This document shows, one piece after another, positions 38,401 to 60,439 of a stretch of 64,000 nucleotides of DNA; the first letter of the stretch is position 1, and each line of letters opens with the position of its first letter. The stretch is from Massalongia carnosa (Eukaryota): NCBI GenBank assembly GCA_965645245.1, contig OZ287079.1, positions 744,001-808,000 on the forward strand. Direction: 5' to 3'. The position numbers and the translations under genes were made by a program. Below the pieces are notes generated by a model. The model had not been told where the DNA came from and did not search any database. It worked only from the letters and a program-made list of their open reading frames with translations.

Positions 38401-40297
38401 TCATGCTCTACATAACCTCCCTCCAGCTTCTACGACCCACTCCTCACTCCCCACAGCAGCGGTAGCATAGAAAATCCTATCCGGATCATACTTGGCTTTC
38501 ACGGCTCTCAGTCGGCCATAATTCGCCCCGTAATAAGTTTGTTGCCAGTTCGGCTGCAGAAAATCGCCTTCATTCAGGTAGCATCCAGAGTCCGGATCTA
38601 GCGCGGTAAGCTGCGGGATATAGCTATTGGTCATTTTGCGCTGCTGGGCGAGCATCGCAGATAAGGGTGCAGTGAAACTCCACGGTCTAGTGAGACATAT
38701 TTCAGCGTGAGTTTCCGCCTAGACTACATAGCTGAAAAATACATCACCTGGGTGATACTCACGTAGAGATAACAACGTCAAGAAGCGTATCTCTCCATGC
38801 TGGGAGCACGGCGTTGTCAACGTCCCCAGCTACGGCTTTGGATACGTTTAGGGCAACACCGATGAATGATCCGCCGTCTTCGGTGATGTTTCGAACCGCC
38901 GCCGTGAGGGCGTCATTTTTGGTTTCAATCACCGAACGGCGGATGAGTCGACCCCCATATTGGGCGGTGCCAACTTGGATGTGGAATTGCATTTCCGTGA
39001 ACTCCGGAAGGTAGCCTGGAAACTGACGAACTGTTAGGGTGTACTTGATGCCGAGCTTTCGAAATTTGCTTAGGAGCGGCTCGAGGAGTTTTTTCAATTG
39101 CGCTTTCGGGATGCCGGGAGCCGTCACAGGAGAGATGAGAAAGGACGTATTTGTAACCATTGAGATGCTCATTGCGCCTGCATCCACGATCGGCGCTAGT
39201 GAGGCATGATAAGCGGCAACCCCAGCGTAGAAAGTGTCGGCCGTGATCCCCTCATTCGAAAATGTCAAATTTGCCGCCGAAACAGGAATGTCCTTGTGCG
39301 CCTTCACGATCAAAGACCAAACTACACCATATGTACCGCCTCCACCGCCGGATAAGGCCCAATAGAGGTCTGTGTTTTCGGTACGGCTCGCTTGACGAAT
39401 CTTTCCAGTGCCGTCAACAACTTCCCACTCCAGGGTCTGATCCGCGGCCAGACCATACTTAGAAGACAAGGCAGAGTGGCCACCGCCTTGAGTGTATCCG
39501 CCCGCCAGTCCAACTGTGGGGCATTCTCCTCCCACTACAGCGAGATCCTGCTTATCGGCGGCGTTGTAAGCTTCAAATCCTTGGACCCCGGCTCCTATTT
39601 TGATGGCTTTGCCTGAGTAATGAGAGCCTTTGTAGTCCAGAAAGGTTATGCTCTTTAGGTGATGCGTCCAAATTGCTAATGCGCCTGCTCCGGTAGATTT
39701 CCCGAGGTAGCTATAGAGATTATTATATGCCCGGGAAAGCATCGATCAGTAAAATTACTCGTGTCCTGTGTTCCTGACTACCAGACGAATGTTGTGCTTT
39801 TTAGCGAAAAATATGCCCTTTGAGATGTCTGAGCGTTGAGTAACGTTAATAGCATAATCGACGTAATTTCCTATGGTGCATCGAGTTGATTTAGGAGTGA
39901 AGGGGTCACAGCTCTGGTTTGCAAAGAAAGGGGCCATGACTGACGAGGACGATTCATAGCTATCAATTGTTAGTACGATTTCGGTAGCCTAAGTGAAGCG
40001 TTCTGACTGTTGTTCAGGCTCCAACCAATTCATTTGGAGCCTTTTACAGGCGCCTTCGTTGTAGACTGGATCGTGACAGGGAGCTCCAAGAGGCACTGTG
40101 GCAACAAGTTTTCCATTCACTGAGCTGTTCAGATTTCGCCATTCGAGCAAAGAGGGCCAAGCTGCATCTCCAGGGAGATGGCGGCAACTTGGATTGGATT
40201 CAGCTAGAGAAACCCAATTCCAAAGAAAAGGTATTGAGATAAGGAATTTGAACGTTGATAATCCGTGCCAGATTTTGATTTTTTTTGGACTTGCCAT
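38401..40297 (-). CDS. FAD-linked oxidoreductase (BBE-like/VAO family), probably secreted, 4 exons
   Basis: CRHLPGD..WP, RNTGH(D)YLGKS, GECPTVG..GGY..GGGHS, DLYWALSGGGGGTYG, and BBE C-terminus YLNEGD..YYGANY..KAKYDP. Confidence 0.92.
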
Positions 40298-40453
40298 GAT
40301 TTTTAAATGCGAGCATTAGAGTAGGTCTCAACTAGGTCTATATCTGAGGTCTGGCAAAGATACACAAATTCAGAGCGGGGTAATCGTGCTAAACCAATTT
40401 CGGAATAGAAGAGCATCCCTTACTGCTTACCAGACGTTGCGTGGCTCTATAAG

Positions 40454-40557
40454 CCGGCTAAGCCCCTCCGGGTTAGCGTCACTGCTGACTAACATCAGTG
40501 CGATAGCACGCATGCGTAGTCAGCTAAAGGGCCGCTAATCCGAAGGGGCTTAGCCGG
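40454..40557. repeat. 104-bp foldback (MITE-like inverted repeat)
   Basis: Arms 40454-40478 and 40533-40557 match at 23/25. Inner pair GCTGACTA/TAGTCAGC. Confidence 0.8.
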
Positions 40558-40705
40558 TCAATGTCGTTTTTTCCTATCCATCAAACAATTCACCACGTCA
40601 TCAAAACAACTCCGATTGTGAATGTTTCAACTTTTATACGTAGAGAATTGACTACTATATCATTGATATTTTTTTTCTCAGCCGCTTTCTCCTCCCTAGC
40701 CTTCT

Positions 40706-41195
40706 TGTTACGATCCGCCTTCGGCATACCGTAACAAGAACTCAGTTAGGCCTAGTGCCACCTGCTAGCCTAACACGCCGCAGACGTGACATCGGCATCT
40801 GCGAGCACAGGACGAGTCGGGAACGTATGACTCGACGGACAAGCGATGACAACACAGGAAGGAGTGGGACGAGAGATATGAACACATCAGTGATCAGACG
40901 GGATCAGTTTGCCTAAAGGGGAAATCTACCGCGGTAGATTTAGGATACGAAACATCGCTGGGGTCGACATACCTGATCACCTCTGATCACCTGTATCCTG
41001 TACCTTGTTTTGCATAGGACTTGGACTCATATATACGCTCGTTATGTCTAGATAGGAACAGCAGTGTTCAACTACTATAACTTATCAATAGCTCGTACAG
41101 AGTCTTAGCAAGGATAATCGCTCTGAAGTCTACTCTCCATCTTTGCCAAGCCTCCATTCCCCCGTGGCGGAAAGACAGCCCCTTGGAATCTTACA
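40706..41195. mobile_element. Solo LTR (family A), 490 bp
   Basis: TG...CA termini with a 5-bp TSD CTTCT at 40701-40705 and 41196-41200. Confidence 0.9.
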
Positions 41196-41290
41196 CTTCT
41201 TCGGTTTTGTCTTTTCTTCTTGAACAAAGCTCCCTACACTGACTCACCTTGATGATCCATCCTGAAAGGCTACCTGTCCATCAAGAACGG

Positions 41291-41783
41291 TGTAAGATTC
41301 CAAGGGGCTGTCTTTCCGCCACATGGGAATGGAGGCTTGGCAAAGATGGAGGGCAGACTTCAGAGCGATTATCTTTGCTAAGACTCTGTACGAGCTATTG
41401 ATAAGCTATAGTAGTTGAACACTGCGGTTCTTATCTAGACATAACGAGCGTATATATAGGAGTCCAAGTCCTATCCAAAACAAGGTACAGGATACAGGTG
41501 ATCAGAGGTGATCAGGTATGTCGACCCCATCGATGTTTCGTATCGCTAAATCTACCGCGGTATATTTCCTCTTTAGGTGATCACTGTTCCTCTAAATCAA
41601 CGCTGATGTGTTCATAATATCCAATGAGATTCTCCCGTCCCACTCCTTCCTGTGTTCACAGTTGTCATCGCTTGTCCGTTGAGTCATACGTTCCCGACTC
41701 GTCCTGTGCTCGGTAGTCATGTCCGCGATAGCGTGTTAGGCTAGCAGGTGGCACTAGGCCTAACTGAGCTCTTGTTACGGTAT
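41291..41783. mobile_element. Second LTR of family A, inverted relative to the first, lacking its last ~21 bp
   Basis: Near-identical reverse complement of 40727-41195; starts TGTAAGATTCC. Confidence 0.9.
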
Positions 41784-41967
41784 TGAGACGGGGTGATGAA
41801 TGGCAGAGATGCGTGCTAATGGAAGGAGGTGCGACGTGATAGATAGATGGCCAACTGAGCAGTGAACAGCCACAAATGATCGAATGATTCTACGACTGCA
41901 TGAACATGTGAAGAACTCGACTAGACGACTACACAGATGAATATGTTGCCACTATGGTTATGTGACA
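41784..41967. mobile_element. Possible short LTR (TGAGAC...GTGACA) truncating the family A LTR
   Basis: TG/CA ends fall exactly at the breakpoint. No matching TSD. Confidence 0.35.
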
Positions 41968-42029
41968 AAGATGTATGTGTAGAGATGTGTGTGTATGTAG
42001 GTGTAGAGATGTGAGGTGCATGTGTGGAG

Positions 42030-44277
42030 ATTACCATATTAAAATCTGTTGCATGGCATGCGAAGTGCGATACCCATTCAGCTTTATTCATCGCTGGGTT
42101 TAGCTGCATGAGATTATATGTGATGCGATAAAATGGTGCATTAGATGACTCCGCATTGTCTGATGATCTAGAGACTAGGCGATGGGCTTTTGACAGCGCG
42201 CATGGCTCACTCGCGTTGGTCTTGGGCACCTTACCTTCATTATCTTGATTGGATATTTTTACTCCCCTAGTTGATGATTCAAGATGTTGAATGACTTCAA
42301 TCGATGCGTGTGCTAGCATTTGATGCCATTCGTAGGCCGTTGCAACTTTGGAAGCTGTTGCTTTGAAAGCTGTTGCAACTTTATTGTTAGCTACTTCAGA
42401 CTTTTGAGCTGGAAAAGCGTATACTTGATTGTCTGAGGTGTTGTCTTCTAGCAGGTAGTGCCCGTTATATCGCTTTACATTGGCCACTGTCATTCCTTCC
42501 CTATGCAGGTGAAGTTTCCAGTTATCAAAGTAAAGCCCTTTAACATAGAGCAAGTCCTGAGAGACTAGATTGGTCATGAAGTTGGACACATATGCTACAT
42601 TAAGTAGTGTCATGCTTTGCGGTCCGGTAGGGGTTGGTACGGTGGTTTTTATTGTGCCATAGCTCTCTATTGCGAGGCGTTGGGTGCCCGCAATAAGATA
42701 TTCCCCTACTGCTTTCTTTTGGAATGTGTATCTGAATTTCATGGTGCTATTGCAAACGTGGCTATTTGATCCGTTATCCAATATCCATGAATCTCTGATA
42801 GTGTAGCTATCTGCTAAGAATGATGAGGAGGTTTTTATTGATGTAAACGCTCCTATCTCCTTTTCCTGATTAGCGTTGGTGGTGGTCTCTTTATTGAATA
42901 TGATTTTGATCGTTGAAGGGATTTTTCTACCCTTGCTTTCACTTGTTGGTTTTTCATTGCCTCTTCCACAATAGCCTCTGTTTGAGCCTTTGGGGTCCAA
43001 TTGACTGGTCTTTTCTCTGACACTAGATAGTAGTAGTCGCTATACCAATGTATAGAACCACATAGACACTTATTGGGTGATTTTGGCCCATTAAATGTTG
43101 CGCCAGATTCATCAGATTGTCCTTCCTTCCCCTTTTTCTCAGCCACAAATGCAGAATGGGTGTTGTTGTCCTTTGCTTTTTGCGACTGATGCAGGCGGAT
43201 AAGACGGCGAAATTTTTCGATCAACAGATCAAGGTCCTGAGGCTTATCATCCTCCCAAATCCATGAGATAATTGTCAGCGAAGATTGGTTCTTTTGAATG
43301 AATCGCCATAAGAAAATCTCTGAGCGGCCGATTCCCGATTGCTTCACCGATTTTATATGTTATAGCCTCGCTACAGACCAATTGCCATTCTTCCAAACAT
43401 GCTTCAATGTCCTGCTTTCCAGGCCCCTTGCATAGCTTATGATACTTTGTTTCAATATCTAGCGCACGAGCCGAATCGCTGGGTGCAAGTCTTCGTTTTA
43501 GTGCTATGAGATGATCCCATGGATGCGATTCCACGTTTTGAATGTAGGTGGCATTCGCTATCGAGAGAGTTTCTTGAATATAGGTTAACAAGTTGATGAA
43601 GGCCTTTTGTTGCCGTTCGTAATTGACCAATAGTCCTTTGTATTCCTGAAAATGAGCCCTATGTAGCTCATACCCCTCCTTGTCAAAGTGTGCGGTCTCT
43701 GTTGGGAGAGCATATGTGGGTTCAACCGGTTTTAGAATGTGAATTGGCTTGATAGGCTTTTCAGGGTTGACTAACTCCCATATTCCATTGGTGATGGCCC
43801 GATTCCGCACGAAAGAGTACCAGGTATCCCAATCCGCTGGTTTGGCTAGGATAATCTTTCTTGTGATAGTAGAGTTCATCTTGGCGGCTTGATTTGTTGA
43901 TTCAATTGAATTGAATTTGATTAGCTTGCGAGCTTAAGTAGTCTAATGCAAATTGAATGCGCGATTAGCAAAGTTTCCTCGGTTGGAATTGCTTCCGGGC
44001 TCATAACTGTTGAGCTGAATGTATGATCTGAGGCTTTTTGCCCTGATGATCAGTTGAGATGATTTACGTCTTGACCAGATGAGGTGAAATGAATGGCATT
44101 GATCTATAGATGATTTTCTAGCTAGGTATGCCGCCAGGGGATAGATCAAGAGATGTCTCCGAAGGAAGAAAGAATGTGGGGGATGAAGAATTTTTATCTG
44201 TGCCGCGGTGGCAATGTCATGTGACGGGCTGTGACGGGCCCGTTGACCAATGTTGGTTAATGCCAGTATAGCTGACA
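42030..44277 (-). mobile_element. Truncated Ty1/copia element (5' LTR 44277-44008, PBS, gag, protease, start of integrase)
   Basis: LTR TGTCAGC..CTCAACA followed by the PBS GTTATGAGCCC. Gag ORF 43879-43247, protease WILDNGSNSHVC, and WHQMLAH; frameshifted, with no RT. Confidence 0.9.
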
Positions 44278-44279
44278 TT

Positions 44280-47200
44280 TGAGATATGATAATAATGAGC
44301 TCTATGATGAATTTATATTTACGTCAGAAGAATATCTCTTCATAGTGAAATAGATGATTGATTTATTGATGGACTCATGATGAATCCTCTAAGCCTCAAT
44401 TTACAAAAAGAGAATTTTGTATGAGCTTGTCTCGCTTGTTACATAATCTCTGCCGTTAGTCCGACAAATTGGTACTGACGTCAAGATAGGAGCATATATT
44501 TGTTTCCACTCCAGATGGGTTCAGATCATATCGTAAATCGCTTTGAGAAGGGCCATCATCGTCAGCTATTTGCAAAGAGTGCTGCATATGAGACAAACCG
44601 AAACCCCGCGACTGTTTGCAGCATCCATTTCTCTCCATCGATGACGAGTTATATCTACAGCATGCAAAAGTGTATGAGCGTTCGGCAGGCCTAGATATTC
44701 GTCGGTTTCTGATTCTTCTGCTTCATCGGCCTGGCCGGTTTCATTTTCTTCTAATAATTCTCGAACTGACATCTTCATGGCCTGATTCTTGGCAGCACGT
44801 CGCTGTTCTTGATCTAATTTCGATTCTATTTGACTCTTTCTCATCTGTGAAATATTGTCAGCGCAATATAACGCATATTCGTCAAGAGTTTCCGTAGCCT
44901 CCAACCAAATTTGCCAGGTAAAATTGAGAAAGGACGATATGGTAGCATTATGAGCATGAAATTTCCTCGACAATTGATCCCAGGGAACAAATAGACCGAG
45001 TAAAACCAAACCCAGATCATTCTGTCTTGCATCTGTATCTGGATTGCCTCCCTGTATAGCGTCTTCAGCGGCCTCGTTTGTCGACAAGGACCCTATCAGA
45101 GCCACCAAAGTGCTGTATGAAGATGCTTTTAAGGACGCTGCGCACCACATTGTTGCTGTGGATGACCGCTGCCGAAAGGAATATCGTCGTCGACCCTATT
45201 GCGATCACTGACAATTGTGATAAGTTTGAAATAATCGTACAGCGAATACTGAGCTAGCTCTGATCCCCTCCATTGATAATGATCAAACATGCTAACTGGC
45301 AATTATTTGGATGGACGAAAACGTACAAAATTGTCAATAGGATCCGACTCAAACATGTCTGCAAAAAGCAATTTTGGAAACCTCTGACGAAGAGCAAACA
45401 GATTGAGTCTTTTTATATTCCGGCACGGGGTAAAATACTCGGGCAAATCTAACAGAGAACTAGCAGCAAGAGGGCCACTAAAATCTCGATCATATGCGAG
45501 CCGATTAAAGGCCCGAAGAGCGAATTTGTCAACATCTACGATCCGTATTTGTTCTGGATGACCAACCGCGACACGTTTATCTGCTGCATCTTCAAAGGCT
45601 TTGCGGCAGTCCCCCTTAGTAGCGTAGTTGGTTATATAGCGTACGAGTGCCAGGGCATAAATAGGAGCAGTTTTAGTGGTAGAAAGTCAATCGTTTCTCC
45701 CAGTTTGTTTTGCATGTGCAAGAACTCGTTTGTCGAACTAGTCATATCAATTGCCCAGTGCTACCATTCCGCCTGTTTCAGTCACAGTTCCAACAATTGT
45801 CATTTTCAAGATTCGTAGTGTATCCTTCTCTTTCCGCAAAATCCGATCCACACTGTAAAACACGATCAGCAATACCCGCTGGAACGAATTCGTCTTCCCA
45901 GTTTTCTAATAAGTCGTATTTGATGACAATGTTTTTGTATAGTGGATTGTTGTCTTTAAGCCAGAGTAAGGCTTGTAGGACTTTGTCTCTTCTGATGCGA
46001 GCAAAAGGACGAATATCTTCAACGGTATGAGGCCTTTTGCTAGCCCACACTATTCGGATCACATCATGCAGCACTAAGGAGCTCGACGGTAAGATATCGA
46101 GCAACGGTCTAGGATTTTGGGGGAGTACTACAGCATGACCGCGTATTCGTTGATAGGAGATGAAACGGCTGGCTCCACTAGGTCTTAACTTCATTATAGA
46201 AATCACCGGATGAGCTCGAGCAATGACGGCTTCTTCTACCGATGTCAAGTCTTTAAGAATCATGGGATAACTTTGACAAGTAGACATGCTGATAGCATTA
46301 ACGGATCCGAATTTTGGGATTTTCGATTGCAAAATCATTCCATAACAGGCTTTGCAGAAGTAAAACTTGTCATCCTTTAATCCACAACAATCAAGATCAG
46401 CTTCCACGAGTGTCTTTGACGACACGGCCCTTCTAAATACAGGATCTGTTTTATGTAGCATTTTAATGAAAGTATGATGTATGAACTGTCCACAAGAAGC
46501 GCAGACATTCGTAGTGTCGGCTACGAGTCTCTACATGAGTCTGGAAACGCCTGATAGCTTCGCGAGTAGAAATATCGGTTAGAACAGGCGGAAAGGACGA
46601 AGCGGCGGCTTTCCTTCTATTAAAATCATTAATCAACACATCTCTGGCACTGAAGTTAACAATAGATCGTGCAGGGACATTGCGGGATGCTGGTTGAAGA
46701 ACGGGTCGAGATGTAGAATAAGGGCGGCGATCTTTCAGCCCAATGTTGCTTGGTGCGGGTGAAACAGCAGATTGAAATATAGAAGCAAGGCGGTCTTCTG
46801 GTTCAACACTGGGAGGCACTGGCTGAAGAACAGATTGAAATGAGAAAGAATGACGATCTTCCGGCCCAACGTTGCAGGGAGCGGGTTGAAGAACAGATCG
46901 AGATGTAGAACAAGGGCGGGCTTCTGGCCCAACAACGCTGAAAGGCACCGACTGAAGAACAGATTGAGATGAAGAAGAAGGAAGCTTCTTCGATCCTCTT
47001 TCATTTGATTCGGACGGTCCTGGTAGTATTGGGCGAAAAGAGATCGCTGATAGCGGTGCACGTGAGGGTCGTCCTCTTTTTCGAATACGTGTAGAAGAAG
47101 CATTAAGCAAATGCTTTGGCATAGAAGGATTGAAATAACTGGCCATTTTATAAAAGCTATAGGCGAGAAAATTAATCTCGAAAAAACAGCTCTTGCCACT

Positions 47201-47353
47201 TTAAAAACATAAAATAAGGAGAAGAAATTGCAAAGGCACTCCAACCTTTTAAACAAGAACATGGATTTTCTTCCATCAGCAGAATAGGACACGTGAAGGT
47301 CATTGAACCATCGATGAACGTTCCATCTACGGTTGCCCTAGATGGACCGTTGA
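44280..47353 (-). mobile_element. Degenerate, internally deleted Helitron-like element (DUF6570-like N-terminus, Rep remnant, pre-helicase region)
   Basis: LTSVEEAVIARAHP..RGHAVVLPQNP..VLQALLWLKDNNPLY, YITNYATKGDC at ~45640-45610, and DLGLVLLGLFVPW. Frameshifts present; termini uncertain. Confidence 0.75.
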
Positions 47354-48521
47354 GGTTAGACTAAAGGCTTATCGCATCCATTCATAAATAGTCCATCGTC
47401 ACTCATCATTGCGTCAAACAACATGTTAATGAATGAAAACGTCAGCGAGGTTACTATGCATATTAGAAGATAAACATATGGAGCGCTTATAAAATCGAAT
47501 ATGGGAAACGGACGAGAGAGGTAACTCTGCGGACGCACCCACCAATGATATGAAGAAAGAGCAGAAACAAGGAGCGATCGCCCGCAGCCGGTGCAATGCT
47601 GTCCCAAAGTACTGTTTCGGTCTAGATTAATCCCGAAGTTATGTATCCGGCTTAGCAGCACCAAGATTTTATATTTGGCTCGGACAATATGTTCTATTAG
47701 CCTCGTGATGCTCGATTCACGTCTTATAAATCGACAACCATTGGTCATTGCCGGCGGATAAACGAAAGCGATGACCTGAGGACGGCTAGTTGCCCCTCGC
47801 TCGTATGACTCTAATCATTTGGCAGATTCTCTGATCTCGTCATCAGCCTAATCATTCGGCATCGAGAGGGAGATAAGATACTGGTCACTGGCCACGATAA
47901 GACAAGCCCTTGGAAGAGCCATGGACATCTAGCTCCAATGATGAAGCAATGATCTGAAAAATCGGTCATGTTATGCAATGCATGCTGCATGCAGCGCGCA
48001 AAGATAACCTAAAAGAATCTAGCTCAGCTGACGTAACGCTAAATCTAAGCGACCATGCAGGTCAAGCGCTTATGTGTCCAATCAAGACTAGGGATGCGGA
48101 ACCCTGTAGCGCCTGATGTTTCTACATCACTTGCTTCCTTCAGGTACATAGGATGCTTTAGCTAACTATGAAAGCCTCTTCTCCTACGATATGTAGCAGA
48201 TACGGCCTAAGTGCTTATAACAGGTAACATCCTGGTTGGTTATCTAGCTGCAAAACTTGCCTATATCAAGATCTGTAATACCAGCCAAGGCAAAAGCATC
48301 CTGCCTCTTTTGGACCTATCTATCACATTGTGTTAACTTCTTGAGGCAGCTGTCGAAATCTATCATGTTCTAGTCAAATGTATATCAACTATTGAAAGTC
48401 TGAGATGGAAACAAACCCTCCGTTATCAACTCGGACACCATTTTTTACGATCCATATAATAATATAAAAAATAACAATTAAAACCCTCATACTCTCCTAT
48501 TTCAAAAACATACGCCTTTGC

Positions 48522-51155
48522 CTATACGCGCAAAATATCCAACAACAATCTCAGTGGAAAATTCTGGATTCCAGAAACCTTCTCCAACAAACTAATTTCG
48601 CTCAGAATCTCACGATGTAACGCATTCAACACTGCGGCTGTATACGCAAGGCTGTCGGTGCGTTTTAAATGTGCAAGCACAAGGTGCTTGTGCCCTAAGC
48701 TTGACTTGCCCGCAACGCGACGCTGGAGGAGAACGCTGCGAAGCTGCATATTTCGCGGGTCCACTTGGAGAGCATGAATGAGGGGAAGGGAATATTTTCC
48801 TTCGTCCAGGTCTTCACAAAAGCCTTTTTGCTTCGAATACTATGGGTGAAGTACTTGTCAATGCTATCGCGTGGAGAGCGATATAAGAGTACGACTTACA
48901 TCGGCAGATACAAGGTTCTGATAGTCATCACGAATCTGGAAATAGCGACCGAACAGAGTAATCAAATCTTCAAGGTCAAAATTTGGGCTTTCAGTAGAAC
49001 GAGCTACCATAAGCTTGGATAGCAAACGGAAGAGACCACCAGTCTCTGTATAGGTTAGTTTAAATTCTCAGATTAAATTATAGCTGGTACACTAACTGTT
49101 ATCTATCATCTTCAGGTACTCTCCAACTGTAGGGCAGACTACGTTGTATGTCCAGTAAAGGTCGAAGCTCTGCCCTATGAACAGGTTTCGCATTTCATCT
49201 GCCATTATCTGTTAACTCAGAATATTTTCTAGAAATGGATTTTAACTCGCCAATGAAGACAGTTAAGCATTCTGGATCGTTAAATTTTCGAATTTCGTTC
49301 AAAGCTTCGATGATCAGATAATTTGCTGAATTTACAGTCTGGGCCGGGCCAAAAATTGTATGCGTTGATGGTTGTTCACGTCGTAACGGGGATGAATCTT
49401 CTAGGTCATCAAGCCTAAAGAGCGAATTACCATGGAGAATCTTTGAAAGAGTCGTAAGAAAACTTACATTAATGAAGCGTCATGAAGGAGGCTGATAACC
49501 GATTTTATAGTTCCCAATGACTGCGCGGAGATTTTCACCCATACGTTCAGTGCATCAATAGCCTGGTCTCTGACTCCTTTAGAAGGTAATGACTTCAAAT
49601 ATTGTGAAGGAGCCGAGACGACCTGATAGTAAATGCATAAGCTATTACGGACGTATTGTGTGGGATAAAGCATTGCATAACGGACCTCATCGCCTAAATC
49701 TGGCAGCCATCGCTTCAGCATAAGATATTCAGCCTGGCTGAGATAAGATTTCTCGGTCGGTTCTGTGCTCTCAATCCCGCTCGAGATCTCGGCTCCGCTA
49801 GCTGTATCTGTTTTGGTTGTTTGGCTGAGGCTAACAGTGGCATCCTTTGAAGGAACGAGTAAAGCGTTGATATCACTAGCAAGTGATATGTCTGGTAGAA
49901 CGATGTTGTACTTGTTTGTGCTAGTTAAATCTCCTTTTTGATGGATTTCAAACGCCTTGCTGACGCCATTTTTCATCCGGAATAGTTGACGTTCATTGAA
50001 GGAAACGTTGGGATGATATCTTGGACAGTCCAAACTCCAAACTCCATTTCCGCTTATACTGTATAATGTGATCTCCATATACTTACGCAAGTCTGGAGAA
50101 ATCTCCATGTTGTTCAAGGCCTCTTTCAAAACAACCATGTAGGTTGCGATACTCTCCTTAATCTTAATTTTACAGAGGTCTTTAGCCTCGTCAGCCGTGA
50201 TGGAATGCTCGCCCATCAGAACCCAAACAGCGTTGACCACATCGGAATCACCATTCCGTATAGCCGTGTCATATTCCTTTTGCCACGAGAAGATGTCATT
50301 TTGAAGACCAAGAGCAACCCAAGCAGGCCGCATGAGCCGTCGGGATAGGTCCATTTCTTCCTCAGGGATTGTAATGGCCATCCCGAATGTCACGATTCCA
50401 AACCAAAACCTCCTGAACTTAGCGGTTATTCTTGTTAGGTTTTATGGAACGCTTACATCTCGCCAACATCAATGATTCTGTACGGAATGTATTCTTCCAA
50501 GGTAGCAAAATGCTCATGATGCTGTCGACCAGATGCTAACTCAACAAATGCCGCCCAGGACTTCATTGTAGTCAAAGCGCGTTCGCGGTCAATGGATAAC
50601 ATCTCGAGAAGCATCTTTGATTGAATTTGTTTCTTTCCAGAACTCCTTGACTCGATGAAACCATTCTGGGCACCTTCACGGAACGCTTTGAGCATCTGAT
50701 CATTCTCCGCCTCTAACTATATCATGGTTAGATATGAAATAAGATCTTGCGAAGCAATAAGCTTTACCTGTTCGTGAGTGATCTCGTCTAGATGGTCTGG
50801 AAATTGTCAACTTGTCAACTTAAAACCGCGAATGGAATGATAGGAAGCTTGCCCTACCGTCATAAAGAAACGCAAATTCATTGGCGTACGAAATGATCTC
50901 AAGCCGGTCTGGCAGGCATTCTGGAACGCTAATTGCCATGAAATTATATTTGGGATGCAAGCCACCTTTATAGTTTTCAACAGGCCCAACCAGCTTTCTC
51001 CAATCCTCTTGAGCACGTAGAGTTCCAATCTCTTCTAGGTCCCAGTCTTTGTGCATCCGGAGAGGAATGGGTCCACACAATCCCTCGGTCTCATACGTCG
51101 CCGGATCCACCAAGGTGGAGTACTTGTATTCCATGTTGGAGGGCTGGAACTCCAT
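48522..51155 (-). CDS. Bifunctional (chimeric) terpene cyclase-prenyltransferase (di-/sesterterpene synthase, PaFS/AcOS type), ~8 exons, apparently intact
   Basis: TC domain: [26 protein letters not shown] and NSE motif [11 protein letters not shown] domain: [58 protein letters not shown]. Confidence 0.95.
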
Positions 51156-52582
51156 GGTCAAAAAATGCGTATCGAATTAAGACGTATAGCGTCAAGAGAA
51201 AGATATGGAGGAGGACGAGGAATATTAAATCTCCCTTTCGTTTTGCTTCCATGATTTCTTGTGACGGCTAATTTGTCAAGCTCCACATTACCTAGCTTTA
51301 TGCTACGAGGCTAGTAATCAGCGCCTCTATGATCTTAGCCAATAAGCGTCCAAGAACGGAAATCAAGAGGATACTCCTGCAGGATCCGCTAAATCGCCAC
51401 TCGTTCTTCGAGCTATCAATGCACGGTGAACAGATTGGACTTCTGATGCTGCTAGGGAGCTGGCTTGCGGCGCAATGCGAGAGGTTCGGCCATGGAAAGC
51501 GCATAGAGAGAGCATCTTCTGCTGGTGCTTGATAATGTGTCATTTATGTCCGATAAGATCCTATTCGTGGTCAAGGGAGTCAATTCGTAATACTCTTGCT
51601 AACACCTTTGGACTAGATGCTATCTTTTGCCACCCCACTCATGGGAGAGAGGATCAATTGTTGGGCAGATGGTACCACCGGAATGATCACCGGGTCTAGA
51701 TGCATGATATCACAAACGCTACTTACTCGATCCTGGTTTTGACTGATATCTGCTTGGTATTCCTGATCCCTCAAGAAAGTTTCCATATTCCCTGAGGCGG
51801 TATAACAACGGTGGGACCCAGCGAATACTTTGCCAATCGCTGGAAGCAAGCTAGTCACCTCGTTCACCTTGCTTATTCTATTTAGCACCCTTGCCAGCAT
51901 ATCAACCATCCGTCGGTGTGAGAAGTGGAGTCGGTTTAGTGATGGGTTTTGGGGTCATTCTTCAGATACTTTTGTGGCCCAGACCTCTTTGATGGGTCTT
52001 GGAATGTCATGCCTAAAACGGCACCTACGGCTGAAATGTACGGCCAATCTTACCCTCATGACAAAGGCGAAATTTAAAGTGATGACAGCTCCTAGCGGCA
52101 TATGCGGGTAAACCCACACACCCTCCTTTTGCATCCACCGCACCTTTCCGTACTTTATCCACGAGCACATTCCTACCCGTAGGAGGGATGATGGTTCAGG
52201 ATTTTGTCTCTTGAGATCTTGGGGCTACTTTAGGTAAGCGGATTCAGGGTTTCATTGGTGCACGGCATAAGCGAAACTGGGAGTTTCCAAGGGTGGGAGG
52301 ATGTGAGGTGGCAGGGTGACACTGGAATGGTCACGTTGCTTGTTGTGCTACAACGTAAACTGTAAGACATCTAGGTATCTTGGTCAATCCCTAGCAGTCG
52401 GCAAGGCAGGTGGATATCTCTAGTGATTTGCCTTAGGGCAAGAGGGTGGGTACTACAGGTCTTAGGGCTGGAGACGAGGGGGCGCGTACATGCTACAAGG
52501 GTTGTAAGAGCGGCACAGCCCAAGCTAAGGTACCTACCTACCTACCTTGGCTATCTAGCCACCTACCGTCCTATTGATTCAT

Positions 52583-52715
52583 TCACCTCTCACTCACCTC
52601 TCACTCACCTCTCACTCACCTCTCACTCACCTCTCACTCACCTCCCACTCACCTCTCACTCACCTCCCACTCACCTCTCATTCACCTCCCACTCACCTCT
52701 CACTCACTTATCACT
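52583..52715. repeat. 11-bp minisatellite (TCACCTCTCAC)n, ~12 copies
   Basis: Directly visible, with some CTCCC variants. Confidence 0.92.
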
Positions 52716-52852
52716 GGCTGATTTCTAATCGTCTCCTACCTCAAACATCCTCCATCTAACCAAGTTCACAGGCTCGGACCTCTCTGCCCAAGCTAAGGTC
52801 AGCTAGACGCCTTGATAGGTATGTGAGTAGGTCTCTTACATCAACATCAATC

Positions 52853-52956
52853 TTAATGCCACTGCCACTGCCACTGCCACTGCTAATGTCAATATCAATA
52901 CCAATGCAAATGCCAATGCTAATGCCAGTACCGGTGCTAATGCTAACGCTAATGCT
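52853..52956. repeat. Degenerate hexamer repeats (GCCACT / GCYAAT)
   Basis: Directly visible in the sequence. Confidence 0.75.
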
Positions 52957-53244
52957 AGATATATATGTCTATGAGCGAAGAGGCTCCGATCAAGTAAGCT
53001 GACTGGCTGGACCCCCAATTATCTAGAGTTACCTGCAATGTCTCGCGCCTCTTCGTATGTTAATTTTGACCGCCCTGTAGGTATAGGAACTGAGCCAGTT
53101 CAAATCCAGCGGTAGGTCCCCATCCTCCATTATCTTTTTCTTTTCTCTGGCTTCCCCCCCTCCCATGCTTTGCTTCATCCAGCTCAAATCGATAGACTCG
53201 ATCAGAAACCAAGATTCTCTTTCTAACTGCTGCACGCCTTCACC

Positions 53245-55283
53245 ATGACCACTATTGTGGATTATCAATTGCTACTCTTGCCATGGAGTTTCGCCGGCGA
53301 ACTGCTCACTGGCTTTCTGTCTTTGGCCATAGTCTCTGGTGTCACCATAGCTATTAATCGCCTGTTTTTCTCGCCCCTGGCCGGTTTTCCTGGTCCGAAA
53401 ATAGCAGCGTTGACGGATTGGTATGAGTTTTACTACGACTTCTTCAGGCACGGAAAATACATTTTTGAAATTGAGAAGATGCACGAGAAATATGGTGAGT
53501 GTGATTAGATGTGCTGGGGCGTTTCTTGCCGCATGAATTCGGCGCTTTTTTGGTGATATTGCGATAGGCCCCATTGTGCGTGTTAATCCGCGAGAGTTGT
53601 CAATCCATGACCCAGACTTCTACAGTGAGCTCTACGTCACAGGAAGTGTGAGACGCACGGAAAATCACCACAATTTTGCCGAAGGAATCGGCTACGAAGG
53701 TTAGACAACCTAGACTCAGCCGTACCCAGCCATGGTGGGCGCTTACGCGGATAGGATCCCATTTTCTGACCGTACCACATGACCTACATCGACGTAGGAG
53801 AAAGCCTTTGGAGCCCTTCTTCTCTCGCGTAGGTGTCACGCGCCTTCAGCCCATGCTAGCTGAGGTGGTAGGCAAACTCGAACGCCGTTTCGAAGCCCTG
53901 AAAGGAACCGGCACCGTTATTCGTCTCGATCATGCTTTTCACGCCTTCTCGGGCGACGTCATCTTCCAAATATGCTGCGAAGAGCAAGCGACGTTTTTGG
54001 AGGACCCAGAATTTGCTCCCGAGTGGTTGGTTACGTCAAGATATTTCGGGAAATGTTGCTAACAAAGCTGTAGGTTCGATCTGATACACTCAATTGTGTG
54101 CTCGATACCCCTATTTGTACAGTTCCCGGTCCTGGTTAAGTACGTCTGCTCTAACTGGACCTTGGCGCCTTATCTATCGTAAAGTGTGTATTGACGGTTG
54201 GACAGGATCCTGAGCTTGATTCCAGAAGCGGTCTTGTCATGGGCGCATCCCGGGAGTCAAGGTTCCAACAATTTTAAAAAGGTAAATCATCAATTAGGTG
54301 TGTCCTTGGATACGAATGAGCTAATAATAAGCACAGATGGCCAACAAGCATATATCTGATGCCAAACGTGATAAGTTGAGCGCCAAAGGTGTTGAAATTA
54401 ACGAACGGACCTCGCTCTTCCGTCACATTCTTGACAGTGACATGCCAGAATCTGAATTGTCTTCAGAGCGACTGAGCAAGGAAGCACAAGTAATACTCGG
54501 AGCTGGTACTACAAGCACCGCTCGGACACTTGACTTGATCTCCTATTATATATTAGCGAATAAACACATTCGCGCTACCCTCAACAATGAGCTAAAAGAC
54601 ATTATGGCGACCTATCCTGAGAAAACTCCATCCTGGGCTGAATTGGAGAATCTGCCCTATTTGCAAGCGCTGATCAAAGAAGGGCTACGGTAATTGCAAT
54701 ACTCTTCTGGATGGTCGTCAAAGCATGGCTGACGGTTGTGAGCGGAATAGTCTTAGCTACGGAGTTATGCACAGACTTCCACGGTGCTCGCCAGATATTC
54801 CCATCAAGTATAGGGGATGGACAATTCCATGTGGCGTCAGTTCCAGTAGATTCATGTGAAGAATTCTCATATTAACGTGCCTAGGTCCCGGTTGGTATGT
54901 CCGCATATCTGATGCACAGCGATCCACGTGTTTATGAAAACCCTCACGAGTTCTGCCCTGAGCGCTGGCTCGGAGCTACCAACCCAAGGATGACTCGGAA
55001 CCTTGTTCCCTTTTCTAGGGGTTCTCGTAGGTGCCTGGGCATGAAGTAGGCAACCCGATGACTCTGATTGATTATGAATTTTTTCATGGTATATGTTAAC
55101 GTTTAACAAATTGACAGCTTGGCGTACGCGGAAATCAACCTCGCTCTTGCGGTGCTGTTTCGGCCAAACGGCCCAGCCTTTGATCTTTACGAGACCACCG
55201 AGTCCGATGTCATCCAAGCACATGATTTTCTCATTCCGCTACCGAGGCTCGACACCAAGGGCGTAAGGATTGTGATCCACTAG
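53245..55283 (+). CDS. Cytochrome P450 (secondary-metabolism type, CYP58-like), multi-exon
   Basis: N-terminal [26 protein letters not shown]-helix AGTTST, KEGLR, PERW, and heme motif [10 protein letters not shown]; stop at 55281-55283. Confidence 0.95.
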
Positions 55284-56389
55284 CATCAGGTAGAAACAGC
55301 TTGAGCTTCTCCTACGTAAGATAGAGATTTCCAATATGGCATGTTAAATCCCTTGGTTGGTGGTGTTGTGTATTCTTTCTCTGGACAGCGGTTTGGCATA
55401 TAGAGCATCGAAGTGTTTAGAGGCCGACAAATTTTGCAGAGACATGTAAATGCTGGAAGTGGCCATTCAACTGGCTGCTTTGAACTCTTGACCTCGACAT
55501 TCTCCTCATCCCTCATTGATATAGGTGACTTCCCCTAGCTGCTCTTCCCCCCCTCCCAACCCATCAACATAGAAGAACTCCACCAAGCCAATTCCGTATC
55601 TCCCGACCTCGAACGTATTGCTGAACCTCTAACCTAAGGTCTATGTATGTCCCGCCTACTACCCGTACATTCCATATTATGTTAAATACACACACCCGCC
55701 CAGCAAATATCTACATAACCCTCCCCCCCCCCTCTTTTCCACGAACTGGTAAGTCCATCAGTTCTCCATCGCCCAAAAGGTCCAACAACACATCAACACA
55801 CACCACCATCTCAGAACCGCTCAATCACAAACCAATCGCGCAGAAGCAAAAACCACTTCCTCCAAAAAAACCCCCCATCAACGTATCCCACCCCCGTCCG
55901 GATTTACTCTTTCGGTTTTTTTATTCCCACAACACAACCCGATCCGAGTGATCACTCCCCCACTCACTGCCTGCTGGTCAGAAAATAAAGGGAAGGGGGG
56001 GGGGGGGTTGGTTAGTTAATGGGTAATCTCGGATTGGGAAGGGGGTAGGGGGGAAGAAGCGGAGTCGGGGCCAAATGGGAACTAACTTACCCCGTTTCCC
56101 CTTCGGGTGGACGGAAAGGTCGGTGCTGATGCTCGTACCGCCTGTGCGCGGAGCGTTAGGGGATCCGAAGCATTTCTCCGGGAAGGTGGTCAACGACCGT
56201 TTTGATGACGGTCCATTCGACGGTCATGGCCGTCTTGAATCCGAATGGCGATTGCACAGTCGCCTAGGAGCGGTGTTAGTCCATAAGGTGGCCTTTACGT
56301 GGTGAAAGGAGCTATGAACATTGTACACACTTCTCCCTGCAGGGGCATGCAAAAGAGAAGTAATGGGAGAGGATGGAGAAGAAGACTTA

Positions 56390-56950
56390 CCGGCCATCTT
56401 GATCAATGACCCTTCGTGCGGGTTCAGCTCTGCGGTCCCCTGGGCCAGAAACTCCCACGCTACCGTCTGACAGCTCGCCGGGCTTAGAGATCCCAGAGCG
56501 GCGTCGCATTTTTTGTCTAGGCCGGACATATCGACCGCTAGCGATTTTTGCGCCATGAGGCCATCAGTCTACGCCAGGTTGGGGTCGGTCCTCTCGCATT
56601 GCTGGGTTGCCCGCAAAGTGTTCGTTAAGCGGGAGATCAACCGATTATCTCGCCCCGGCATCCTGAAGTAAAACGAGTTCAATCGCGCCACGGTGCAATC
56701 CATTATATCATGGTTTCGATCGCCTGAAAGATCGTCGTTGTGCTGGCCTGTCAAGGTGATAACCATGAAGGGGTCGAAGACCACTGGAACGCCGATTATG
56801 TCATGGGTCGTGGAATTATCCAGGCAACGGCGAGAAGTGAATTTTACCTTTCACGGGGTCGAGCAGGCTTTTAACCGTCTCGTCAAATCTGTAGGTAATA
56901 AATCCTCCAGCAGTTCGGCTTTTGATACAATCCCGGTTGCTGGTGAAAAT
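56390..56950 (-). pseudogene. Interrupted reading frame of unknown family
   Basis: ORFs 56569..56784 and 56224..56556 plus upstream sequence are in one frame with two internal stops, ending at a GTAAGT donor-like site. Confidence 0.35.
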
Positions 56951-58812
56951 CATCTACCAAACGTTCCATGGCATTATTAACCCCTCGTAAGGTATTGCTC
57001 CGACGGAGGGAGCAGCATCGATGGTTAAACTGCCTATTCTATCATCGTCTGAGATCGCAGGTCAGAAGTTTGACACCGTCCATGAAAAGTGGCCTTCTTT
57101 ACGCTCTCCACCAAAGAGTACTGGAGATGTAAAAGAATTGGAGCATAGACAAATCATATCCATGGTCACGAAAGCTGCTCTGATTCCTCACTCACTTACG
57201 ATTTCGCTTTAGAATCTTGCGCGGCAATTTAACCTTTGGAGGTGGCGTGCCTAACCATTATGATTGTGAGACGTAAAGTAGGCGTCACCTGTACTCCGCG
57301 CCCAGACTATGCTCATGCATTGGTACTCCCAGGTGATGCCCGTGTTAGGAAAGCACCTGATTACATCTGGACTCTGGAAACTTGCCCACGAGATGGCCAT
57401 AGGAGCAGGTCCAGTATCAGAAGATAGGATAGGCGGAACAAGTCCTGGCGGTACGCAAAGATCTTCATAGATGTAAAAATCAAGAGCTGAAAGCTTGAAC
57501 AGGGAATTATTACAACCCGATGTTGGTAGTACGTGGTAGGTATGGCGGAAAAGCAAAGCTGGGATGAAAAACCGCCGTCGCCATCTGAAGGTTGCATGAA
57601 ATTATGGGAGGCAACGAACGAGCGAGAGCTTTCCTTTCAATCGCTTTGTGGACAGAGTAGAATACGAATAGAAAGTGCACCTAAAGTATTCCAAAAGCAC
57701 TTTGCCGACCCACGCCATCGGGAGATGGACTTCCAAACATATCTGTCGAAAACAACCGCGCTGGTCACGAAGTCACAGGCTGCGCAGGTGTTTCTCCACG
57801 TTTCACCGCTCCACAGACCAAACTTTTTTAAAACAGAATATCTTCGTCATGCACTTTCTTTCCTTTAAAAAAATCCCACCACTTTCCATGAATGAATTGG
57901 TGTGAAAATACCTCAGAGGCAAAACCCCTTACACTAGACTATCGAGCGGACAAAACAGCAGGCAGTTATAACCCCGCTCGCCCATCTATTTTGCTTTCTT
58001 TCATCTTTTCATCTCTTCGTCTAGTCAGCTAGTCAGTACGTACGTAGTTATATGACGACGACGTTGACCTGATCATTCGTTTCTTTCCATGTGATGACCC
58101 AGTGACAGCACCATAAATCCATCGACGCACACCACCCAGTTTATCCCTCTCCACCGTTAGGCCATCAAAATACCTCCAATGCCAACCTAGAATAAGTGTC
58201 AACAGTTTCAACTATCCCTGTAAATCTAGCACCCTCGTATCCCTATAAGATGTTGGTGAAATGGTCAAGGTTCTATATAGCTCATGGATTGGCGACCAAG
58301 TTGGGATGGCGGGCACACCGACCCCCCTCAGTACTTCTAACGAAAGCGTAAACTATTGAAACCATCAGTGCCTTTCCCAAATCTAACGAACCTTTTAAAT
58401 TGAGAGAAGCTATTCAAGGCCGAAAAATTCCCCTGAGGGAGTCGCTGCTCGAGTCGCTCGTATAACGTGTCTCAGCAGTAACACATCCATGGCATATGTG
58501 CTAGATTAAAATGTTTCTCGTCTGAATTGGAAGCAGCCCCGGACGGAAACCGTCGTGTTTGAGCGAATTTTAGCTGAAGTTGCTGTTGAAAAATATGCTA
58601 TCTCGGATAGAACCTACAAATTCAGTGCTGAAGGACACTGTTGTGCAGCTAAAGGGAAATGTACGTAGAAATACTTTTCCGACATAGGATATATGGTCGG
58701 ATGCTGTTGCTCAACTGTGCACCAAACTTTCTTACAGGAAGCTCAAAGCATCCTGTCTTCCCGAAGCTCAAGATATCCAAGTCTCAATTCCGACCAGTCG
58801 TCGCGTCTTTGA

Positions 58813-60439
58813 CTAAAAAGATATCCAATCATATTTAAACTCAGAGGGGCCCTCCGAGGTGGGCTTCAGCGTGCAAGTCAAATGAAGTTTTCGTTGGGTC
58901 AGTTCAACAATAACCATAACTTCTTTCACTCTTTTCTCTTCTTTAATCTGCTTGGCACATTTGACATCCCCCAACCCTTCCTCTTCAATCTCCATTATCC
59001 GTTTTGCAACTTTGGCTGCACCAGAACTGTCCCATGAACCATCCCGACAGTTCAAAGAATCAAGATGTGTAAATGCTCGTCGACGTAGGTAAGGTTCTCG
59101 ACACCGATAAGCAATATAAAACAAGGGTAGGACGATCCCCAACTCAAAGCTTAGGTTTTTATGATGCCATAGTTTTCCTATGGTCCGTGAGGTAGAATTC
59201 ATGAGAGCTGGAAGAGTTTCAATGAGAGTAAGAATTTTCTCAAAGCGCGCCGTATGTGCATCAAACGTGGTTTCCTTTCTTGAAGAGCCGGGGCCGATCA
59301 TGAGCACGGTTATATCGTGGTAAATTTGTGTTATGGTAAGGGCGTCCTGCACTTCCGAATTCAATAAGCCCTGACTCTGCTTTTGCCGAAACTCGGCAAA
59401 TACAGAAGCCCAAGTTTTAAGACAAGTCTCAGACGTAGATTTCATCACCAGAAGATCTGCAATGGTCTGGGATGTTTGAGGCATGGCAGAAAAACCGCCG
59501 CTAAATAGTTCTGATATGAGTATCGACCATTTTAAGTGCTCAAATAGAAGGTGTTGAGCTTCGGCAAGCGAAGAGAACGTAGAGGGAATGTCCTGTTGTG
59601 TGAACATGAAGCGCAGGGATAATTGAAAGGTGTGGGGAACGCGAGAATCTGCTAATGTCATTGCTTGGAGGTCAAGCCTAGAGAATGTTTCAAGGATGTC
59701 GTCGGAAACGGCGGGACCGCCTTTGCTTTGGTCAATCGCCAACCTTTCCCGGATATCCGAGAGGATACATAGTCCACTCTCAAGGTGCATCTGCGCCGAA
59801 CGGTAATCACCCATCTGCTCCTCATAACATATAAACAGCACACATGCGACGAGGGCTTTCTCTAAACTATCATGGGTATTATGCGATAGTAGCTTGGTGG
59901 TATACCTAACCGCCTTGCTATAGTTTAAGAGGGCGTACTGGCGACCTTGATCTAGTTTAATGAGATTCTCCAGCTCATACTGCCGATGCAACGAGCTGAG
60001 AGCAAGAACAGCATGTTTGACCGCAGGTTCGGAATGGCTGATCTGAAGTACCCGGCGACTCCAAAATTCGGAGCCAAAAAAGGACGAAGACTTTGGCACC
60101 GTCCTTGCGCGGAAATAGTTAAAGCATTCTCGCTCGCAGTCGTTATCGAAATTCCCCGTCGGAATGCAGATATCTACCAAAGAACCACCATCATGGACAA
60201 GGCGGGAGATTTGATGTCTTGTCACTTGGACAGTTGTATAGCCATCACATTTGCGACCTGTACTCTGGCATCGGAAGCAACTTGGCCGTTCTTCGCCACA
60301 TTTTACACGTCGAAGCCTAGATCGGGTTTCAGCCGCTCATTCGAAGGACCAGCTGCTAATTTTCGACTGACCTGCACGTGATGCAGCCTGTTTTCACTCT
60401 ACGTATTCTGGCGGATGACTCGAGCTCTCGAGTTTCCAT
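58813..60439 (-). CDS. Zn(II)2Cys6 transcription factor, 2 exons
   Basis: VKTGCITCR / LRRVKCGEERPSCFRCQSTGRKCDGY joined across an intron, followed by a 470-aa fungal TF domain (FWSRRVLQ.SH.EPAVKHA). Confidence 0.92.

What the first reader, a model, noticed from the sequence alone, without database searches (positions are those of the whole stretch)
38401..60439. Candidate di-/sesterterpenoid gene cluster split by a transposon nest
Seen: an intact chimeric terpene cyclase-prenyltransferase (48522-51155) and a P450 (53245-55283) are divergently transcribed from a shared ~2.1-kb region. A BBE-like FAD oxidase lies ~8 kb away, separated almost entirely by TE debris, and a Zn2Cys6 factor is 3.5 kb beyond the P450. 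Known: synthase+P450 pairs make stellatic acid and asperterpenoid, and the ophiobolin pathway adds an FAD oxidoreductase. The N-terminus resembles, from memory, fusicoccadiene (PaFS) and ophiobolin F (AcOS) synthases. Inference: this is a 2-4 gene pathway for a possibly undescribed oxidised C20/C25 terpenoid, with the oxidase adjacent before the TE insertions.
Basis: partly seen in the sequence, partly recalled or inferred. Interest (0 to 1): 0.8.

Follow-up and report, generated by a model that had tools for sequence, protein, structure and literature searches.

The report
Lichen-fungus terpene synthase–P450 gene pair
A lichen-associated fungus carries a common kind of two-gene unit (a fused terpene synthase next to an oxidising enzyme) that probably makes an oxidised diterpene; the enzyme belongs to an untested branch of its family, but the two extra genes proposed for the cluster look like bystanders.

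Summary
A single-copy chimeric cyclase–prenyltransferase (9 exons, 731 aa) faces away from an intact P450 across 2,089 bp. Multicopy transposon DNA fills 84% of the 8.2-kb gap to a BBE/VAO-type oxidase, and a Zn2Cys6 gene lies 3.5 kb beyond the P450. The synthase is a clade II enzyme: its cyclase is 69% identical to an uncharacterised Vezdaea protein, 55% to PaFS and 44–47% to the VrcA, EvAS, TvTS and ophiobolin synthases. Trees reject nesting it with PaFS, OblA or EvAS/VrcA. Its pocket matches PaFS at 9 of 10 published sites, which points to C20, with local changes (Tyr98, Ile309, Thr310, Gly318). The P450 is 45% identical to VrcB of the two-enzyme variecolin pathway. The oxidase has a signal-peptide-like N-terminus and belongs to the widespread MreA-like group; in none of 17 species do the listed homologues share a contig length with a chimeric synthase. 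Nothing ties the transcription factor to the pair. Caveats: three non-consensus splice signals, no RNA data, no syntenic relative seen. Verdict: new member of a known kind, product unknown.

The parts
48522..51155 (-). Chimeric class I terpene cyclase-prenyltransferase (clade II), 731 aa; exons 51155-50858, 50796-50768, 50716-50457, 50409-49686, 49622-49468, 49414-49251, 49198-49097, 49045-48900, 48839-48522
   Evidence: model and alignment; Pfam Terpene_syn_C_2 and polyprenyl_synt; PDB best hit fusicoccadiene synthase; no second copy found in the genome (7, 56)
51156..53244 (.). Shared divergent upstream region, 2,089 bp, essentially single-copy, with an 11-nt tandem array at 52579-52715
53245..55283 (+). 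Cytochrome P450, 519 aa, 9 exons, 45% identical to VrcB
   Evidence: (model)
38401..40297 (-). VAO/BBE-type FAD oxidase, 574 aa, MreA-like, hydrophobic signal-peptide-like N-terminus; probably not part of the pathway
40431..41783 (.). Short dispersed repeats and a fold-back element with long inverted arms (40726-41783)
   Evidence: (98 matches listed, self included)
41921..44470 (-). Broken 5' part of a copia-type retrotransposon (gag/protease/pre-integrase), copies elsewhere 94-98% identical
44028..44284 (.). 257-bp element inserted into the copia fragment, flanked by a 6-bp target-site duplication; 23 other copies listed at 98-99%
44560..47371 (-). Broken Helitron-type fragment (DUF6570); a 97%-identical copy elsewhere carries Helitron_like_N
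58813..60439 (-). Zn2Cys6 / Fungal_trans_2 transcription factor, 523 aa; no evidence of a link to the pair
   Evidence: three paralogues at 34-38% over the full query, elsewhere in the genome

Best explanation
A two-gene diterpenoid unit. The prenyltransferase half makes GGPP from DMAPP and IPP (inferred). The cyclase half ionises it on the DDxxD/NSE metal cluster and closes C1-C11 and C10-C14, the type B start of clade II enzymes (family knowledge, PMC8307374, PMC9551204). It then most likely closes C2-C6 to a 5-8-5 fusicoccane-type C20H32 hydrocarbon, possibly by the deprotonation/re-protonation route of TadA because it has Tyr98 where TadA has Tyr91 and PaFS His91 (inferred). The divergently transcribed VrcB-like P450 oxidises the hydrocarbon several times, as VrcB, TadB and OblB do (inferred). 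The oxidase and the transcription factor are neighbours, and the transposon nest lies beside the unit rather than inside it. Shown: gene structure, motifs, family placement, pocket residues, repeat content. Inferred: expression, chain length, product, P450 substrate.
For: Cyclase pocket equals PaFS at 28 of 34 positions that I picked and 9 of the 10 named in PMC9177416, against VrcA 22/6, EvAS 21/6, OblA 18/5, TvTS 23/5. It keeps the bulky floor pair Met222/Trp226 that TvTS, EvAS, VrcA and OblA lack. The two prenyltransferase floor residues are Ile-Ile as in PaFS and the Talaromyces stipitatus enzyme, against Leu-Val (EvAS, VrcA, TvTS) and Tyr-Thr (OblA) (that these are floor residues is recalled from yeast GGPP synthase). 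No decay at protein level: 0 departures at conserved cyclase columns (median of 125 others 5) and 1 in the prenyltransferase (median of 87 others 3); that one (RRG to RRE) is shared with the active TvTS (activity in PMC9177416). The P450's cluster-mate VrcB (45%) sits next to its synthase (OJJ98432/OJJ98433; RAH68434/RAH68435) and synthase plus VrcB suffice for variecolin (PMC10793096). A lichen metagenome from another study holds both genes at uniform 25-28x depth with 24 differences in 5,242 nt and 10 in 2,748 nt.
Against: No RNA data and no relative with visible gene order. Three of 8 synthase introns have non-consensus signals while all 12 introns of the other three genes are GT-YAG; use of the CAG acceptor would insert an Arg where 85 of 87 matched homologues have exactly two residues. 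P450-synthase adjacency was seen in only 2 of 6 species present in both hit lists (not adjacent in Diaporthe batatas, Anthostomella pinea, Aspergillus affinis, A. mulundensis), and closer P450s (58%, 57%, 49%) have unknown neighbours. The chain-length correlates rest on few characterised enzymes; Thr310 replaces a floor Met and may enlarge the pocket. PMC8307374 reports that identity predicts product poorly and that only 34 of 74 tested synthases were active.
Confidence: 0.55

Rival explanations
1. The same pair makes a C25 sesterterpenoid (variecolin-, stellatane- or ophiobolin-like).
For: Prenyltransferase identity is slightly higher to OblA (52.8%), VrcA (51.5%) and EvAS (50.8%) than to PaFS (46.9%); the P450's named relative works on a C25 skeleton; Thr310 and Gly318 are smaller than PaFS Met309 and Val317; AU tests do not reject a sister position to the wider VrcA/Tnd or OblA groups (p 0.38, 0.22).
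Against: Met222/Trp226 floor and Ile-Ile prenyltransferase floor match C20 enzymes; nesting with EvAS+VrcA or the OblA subclade is rejected (p 0.0004, 0.0002).
Confidence: 0.15
2. The synthase is silent or beginning to decay through splice-site damage, or only its cyclase works, using GGPP from the genome's separate GGPP synthase.
For: Three non-consensus splice signals; without the GC-AG intron the prenyltransferase ends early; transposon-rich surroundings; a stand-alone GGPP synthase-like gene on contig C3; short cyclase-only relatives exist (P0034, P0035, P0037).
Against: No frameshift or stop in the model, conserved columns intact, end branch not unusually long (0.25); a second sample shows 0 differences over 47372-52611, so the odd sites are not assembly errors.
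Confidence: 0.15
3. One reading: a 3-4 gene cluster in which the FAD oxidase (and the Zn2Cys6 factor) belong to the pathway and transposons split it.
For: Only 133 + 1,150 bp of unique DNA remain between the oxidase start and the synthase stop once repeats are removed, same strand; FAD oxidases do tailor some terpenoids, and the A. ustus obl cluster has a Zn2Cys6 gene (PMC8836403).
Against: The factor has three similar paralogues.
Confidence: 0.2
4. The P450 is unrelated to the synthase; the divergent arrangement is chance.
For: 4 of 6 testable species do not show adjacency; identity to VrcB is only 45%.
Against: The genome's only chimeric synthase found is head-to-head with the only close member of this P450 group found (next paralogue 43% over one exon).
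Confidence: 0.1
5. A C30 synthase like TvTS.
For: TvTS is the only one of 112 homologues matched at this motif that shares the RRE variant.
Against: The cyclase lacks the small tunnel residues A212, Y216, G300, G303, S307 described for TvTS (5 of 10 sites shared); A212M and Y216W, the residues found here, cut TvTS activity to 15% and 28% (PMC9177416).
Confidence: 0.03

Closest known systems
PaFS, fusicoccadiene synthase (Phomopsis amygdali; P0006, PDB 5er8/7jth)
   Same: Same TC-PT build; best PDB match for both cyclase exons tested; 9 of 10 published pocket sites, Met/Trp floor.
   Different: 47% full length, 55% cyclase; Tyr for His91, Ile/Thr/Gly for Ala308/Met309/Val317; nesting with PaFS+Colletotrichum rejected (p 0.0002).
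vrc cluster: VrcA + P450 VrcB (variecolin, Aspergillus aculeatus; PMC10793096)
   Same: Chimeric synthase next to a P450 that is 45% identical to this one; two enzymes suffice.
   Different: Synthase only 44% identical, C25, small pocket floor (Ala/Tyr); vrc has an ABC transporter, none was found next to this pair.
tad cluster: TadA + TadB (talaro-7,13-diene, Talaromyces wortmannii; PMC9551204)
   Same: Two-gene fusicoccane unit; Tyr at the PaFS His91 position.
obl cluster: ophiobolin F synthase OblA (P0253/P0101), OblB, OblC
   Same: Clade II chimeric synthase plus P450; Ile at PaFS position 308.
   Different: 45% full length, 18 of 34 pocket sites; OblC was modelled on spermidine dehydrogenase and is often unclustered, unlike the VAO/BBE oxidase here.
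Vezdaea aestivalis M1814_002822 (KAI9891309.1; uncharacterised)
   Same: Closest sequence found: 69% cyclase, 61% full length.
   Different: Keeps PaFS-type His91, Ala308, Met309, Val317 and RRG; sister grouping with the window's enzyme is neither supported nor rejected (p 0.37); gene neighbours unknown.
MreA-like / MtVAO615-type FAD oxidases
   Same: The window's oxidase is 62-72% identical full length to its best hits; closest structure MtVAO615 (6f72).
   Different: No terpenoid role shown for this group in my results.

Membership tests
Fungal chimeric class I terpene synthases (PTTS) | N-terminal cyclase with DDxxD/E and NSE/DTE motifs | tested here: met
   DDHLD at 99, NDIFSWQKE at 233; Pfam PF19086
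Fungal chimeric class I terpene synthases (PTTS) | C-terminal trans-prenyltransferase with DDxxD and DDxxN in one reading frame with the cyclase | tested here: met
   DDLED and DDYQN, PF00348; the frame depends on a GC-AG intron not confirmed by RNA
Fungal chimeric class I terpene synthases (PTTS) | Forms a cyclic C20-C30 terpene from DMAPP and IPP | not testable with these tools
   Needs expression and GC-MS
Clade II (type B, C1-III-IV) PTTS | Cyclase groups with PaFS/OblA/EvAS/TvTS rather than with other subfamilies | tested here: met
   Inside a 43-row group (93/92) holding PaFS, OblA-cluster, EvAS, VrcA, TvTS, apart from variediene-type outgroups; clade I enzymes PbSS and NfSS score far lower
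PaFS-type fusicoccadiene synthases | Nested in the PaFS subclade | tested here: not met
   Outside the 99/98 six-row PaFS group; nesting with PaFS+Colletotrichum rejected p 0.0002, sister to the whole group not rejected p 0.07
PaFS-type fusicoccadiene synthases | PaFS pocket residues F65, F89, F196, W197, M221, W225, M309, S312, N316, W319 | tested here: inconclusive
   9 of 10 kept, M309 is Thr; His91 is Tyr
Ophiobolin F synthases | Nested in the OblA subclade with its pocket signature | tested here: not met
   AU p 0.0002; 18 of 34 sites
Class I C30 synthases (TvTS type) | Small residues forming a tunnel under the pocket | tested here: not met
   Met222, Trp226, Ser313, Asn317 present; 5 of 10 sites shared
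Synthase + multifunctional P450 two-gene units (vrc, tad) | Intact P450 adjacent to the synthase and homologous to known partners | tested here: met
   2,089 bp apart, 45% to VrcB
Synthase + multifunctional P450 two-gene units (vrc, tad) | Linkage conserved in relatives; co-expression | tested here: inconclusive
   Adjacent in 2 of 6 testable species; no relative genome or RNA run on offer
Ophiobolin-type cluster with FAD oxidoreductase OblC | Linked oxidase homologous to OblC | tested here: inconclusive
   OblC sequence not available; the paper's template (SpdH, 16%) points to another fold than the VAO/BBE family found here

The most novel reading that the evidence does not exclude
The synthase stands on an uncharacterised, deep branch at the base of the PaFS/OblA/EvAS radiation, and its rare pocket combination (Tyr98 with Met222/Trp226 plus Ile309/Thr310/Gly318; Thr and Gly each occur in only 2 of 125 other rows) diverts the type B cascade to a ring skeleton not yet described, which the P450 (and perhaps the once-adjacent oxidase) turns into a new lichen terpenoid. 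A merely new isomer or new oxidised compound on a known skeleton is likelier (about 0.35) but less exciting.
Probability: 0.12. Interest if true: 0.65.

Novelty: new member of a known kind. Interest (0 to 1): 0.35.

Why it matters
Chimeric synthases are a main source of new C20-C30 skeletons, and this one is a ready two-gene expression target at no more than 55% cyclase identity to any characterised enzyme in my set. Its natural pocket variants test which residues steer the C2-C6 closure and chain length. My four literature searches that joined lichen with terpene-synthase terms returned no paper on a characterised lichen chimeric synthase, so it could link a lichen terpenoid to its genes. Against excitement: the architecture is published (vrc, tad, tnd), eight lichenised taxa already carry unstudied relatives (lichen habit from my own knowledge), and in one screen 34 active enzymes gave only 2 new compounds among 24 (PMC8307374).

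Tried and rejected
RNA: no RNA holder listed; this says nothing on expression. Testing whether the nest is absent in other samples: contigs of X3 and X4 break at both nest margins and none of the 15 joints shown (of 30) skips the nest, so the question stays open; the variant table showed 40 rows, nearly all in repeats (651 not shown), so differences inside the genes could not be placed; X5 was patchy; X6 held only short diverged pieces. Synteny in relatives: the genome search offers no relatives, so contig lengths and locus tags of homologues served as a proxy. RRE as a dead prenyltransferase: rejected, the active TvTS has it. Foreign origin or RIP: GC3 0.49 lies within the neighbours' range 0.45-0.54 and dinucleotide ratios are flat. 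Further cluster genes: 30 kb beyond the window gave transposases, an ankyrin protein, a DUF3638/DUF6606 protein and copia among the ORFs scanned; upstream are a sirtuin, a calcium exchanger and other housekeeping genes. The stretch 56100-57450 gave no family. A CGG-type motif scan of the shared upstream region found nothing distinctive and had no shuffle control. A P450 exon found no PDB match. P0067 could not be tied by identifier to the brassicicene-like cluster. The variecolin paper's supplement, which lists P450 identities, could not be read and may name closer characterised P450s. Earlier scan notes: nothing. No structure was predicted.
Full report
Setting. The window is contig C13:744001-808000 of a 52-Mb, 25-contig fungal assembly. 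A lichen metagenome from another study holds 87% of the sampled words of 48000-55500 and covers the genes at even 25-28x depth, so the host is a lichen-associated fungus, probably the mycobiont (inference).

Observation. Motifs [19 protein letters not shown] and DDYQN are present. The P450 (519 aa, 9 exons) has its I-helix, ExxR, PERW and haem motifs. The oxidase (574 aa) and the Zn2Cys6 factor (523 aa) are open. Three synthase introns are unusual: a GC donor, a GAG acceptor 3 nt behind a CAG, and a weak GTCCGT donor; the 12 introns of the other three genes are GT-YAG. A second sample shows 0 differences across the synthase, so these are real sequence, but splicing is unverified.

Transposon nest. 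Contig depth over 40301-47637 is about 5 to 100 times single-copy in run X3. Genome searches show short repeats and a fold-back element (98 matches), a copia fragment with 94-98% copies interrupted by a 257-bp element with a 6-bp target-site duplication, and a Helitron fragment whose 97% copy carries Helitron_like_N. The stretch 44475-45799 was not searched in the genome; it is called repeat on depth alone. Repeats fill 6,941 of 8,224 bp, leaving 133 bp before the oxidase and 1,150 bp after the synthase. Earlier adjacency is plausible but untested.

The synthase. No second copy was found in the genome. Cyclase identity: Vezdaea M1814_002822 69%, Arachnomyces 61%, Massariosphaeria 60%, PaFS 55%, T. 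stipitatus 51%, OblA-cluster 47%, TvTS 46%, EvAS 45%, VrcA 44% (120 of 130 hits listed). VrcA is identified by organism and adjacency to vrcB; the T. stipitatus protein is taken as the talarodiene-type enzyme by inference from PMC9531244, not by accession. Trees of 125 rows (FastTree), 50 rows and 26 rows (IQ-TREE LG+G4, rows chosen by me to keep each group) all leave it in the unresolved base of the group, outside three strongly supported subclades holding PaFS, OblA and EvAS/VrcA. AU tests on 26 rows reject nesting with PaFS+Colletotrichum (p 0.0002), the OblA four (0.0002) and EvAS+VrcA (0.0004); they do not reject a sister position to the wider groups (0.07, 0.22, 0.38) or to Vezdaea (0.37); the groups were chosen after seeing the trees. 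TadA, MgMS, TndC, SdnA and most PTTS enzymes were not in my set.

Chain length and mechanism. PMC9177416 names ten pocket residues that separate PaFS from the C30 enzyme TvTS. The window's enzyme matches PaFS at 9, VrcA and EvAS at 6, OblA and TvTS at 5. The Met/Trp floor occurs in 19 of 125 other rows, most of them the PaFS-group rows of the trees plus Vezdaea and Massariosphaeria. Two prenyltransferase residues that align with the chain-length floor of yeast GGPP synthase (role recalled) are Ile-Ile as in PaFS and the T. stipitatus enzyme, not Leu-Val or Tyr-Thr as in the C25/C30 enzymes. Departures: Tyr98 for PaFS His91, the position where TadA Tyr91 governs C2-C6 closure (PMC9551204 text and supplement; shared with 2 of 19 other Met/Trp rows), and Ile309/Thr310/Gly318. 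The RRG-to-RRE change is shared only with TvTS among 112 matched homologues. Conserved columns are otherwise intact. Best reading: GGPP, type B bicyclisation, probably 5-8-5 closure, with real room for a different end product.

The P450. A search of cluster representatives with one exon gave 1,607 hits, 150 listed; I looked up names for 20. One cluster holds VrcB (45% full length), adjacent to its synthase in A. aculeatus and A. aculeatinus by consecutive accessions. Four other species with both genes listed do not show adjacency, and closer P450s (unnamed 58%, Monilinia 57%, Astrocystis 49%) have unknown neighbours. Family, head-to-head layout and lack of a close paralogue favour a working pair without proving it.

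Oxidase and factor. The oxidase has 1,271 homologues at E<=1e-40, many named MreA, closest structure MtVAO615, a hydrophobic N-terminus and no close paralogue found. This proxy is blunt for multi-member clusters and cannot exclude a more distant linked paralogue. The ophiobolin oxidase OblC was modelled on spermidine dehydrogenase and is unclustered in 2 of 4 producers (PMC8836403). The factor is one of four similar genes. I give their membership 0.2.

Papers seen: PMC9531244 (part 1 of 3 and passages), PMC10793096 (passages; supplement unreadable), PMC8307374 (passages and section 7), PMC9177416 (parts 1-3 of 7), PMC9551204 (parts 1-2 of 3 and supplement passages), PMC8836403 (passages), PMC5006380 (passages).

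Verdict. A real, probably functional synthase-P450 pair of a published kind, on an untested branch, most likely making an oxidised diterpenoid. The wider split cluster is not supported. New member of a known kind; interest 0.35; chance of a new skeleton about 0.12.

Noticed in passing
window 56185-56568 and up to about 57450, minus strand: Single-copy stretch with a clean GTAAGT...CTAAC...TAG intron (about 56389-56263) and short open frames broken by stops; no Pfam or Atlas match. Possibly a small or decayed gene between the P450 and the factor.
   Followed up: partly
window 49376-49378 (approximate), synthase prenyltransferase domain: RRG motif reads RRE, shared only with the C30 synthase TvTS among 112 homologues.
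   Followed up: yes
window 40298-40430: Only 133 bp of unique DNA lie upstream of the oxidase start before repeats begin, so the nest may have displaced its promoter; the X4 contig stops about 100 bp earlier than the X3 contig.
   Followed up: partly
window 57957-58158: About 200-bp dispersed repeat with 16 other matches at 74-87%; run X4 shows a joint from 58072 to the repeat at 40708.
   Followed up: partly
window 47312-47347, 61370-61391, 61991-62026: Short shared repeat at the right edge of the nest and near the copia element at 62080-64000.
   Followed up: no
window 52579-52715 and 52855-52927: 11-nt tandem array (12.5 copies) and a 6/12-nt array in the shared upstream region.
   Followed up: no
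window 1-38050: Housekeeping neighbours: DUF4246, methyltransferase, GNAT acetyltransferase, TPR protein, elongation factor 3, FYVE/rabenosyn protein, sirohaem synthesis enzyme, a reverse-transcriptase fragment at 28896-29849, a calcium exchanger and a sirtuin.
   Followed up: no
L003-L005 (C13:808001-838000): Further transposon block (Tc1/mariner DDE, hAT, copia), an ankyrin protein and a large DUF3638/DUF3645/DUF6606 protein.
   Followed up: partly
L006 (C3:445000-454999): Stand-alone GGPP synthase-like gene.
   Followed up: no
run X6 laid on window 50526-50639: Another lichen metagenome holds a diverged synthase piece (25 differences in 114 nt) on a 5.6-kb contig.
   Followed up: no
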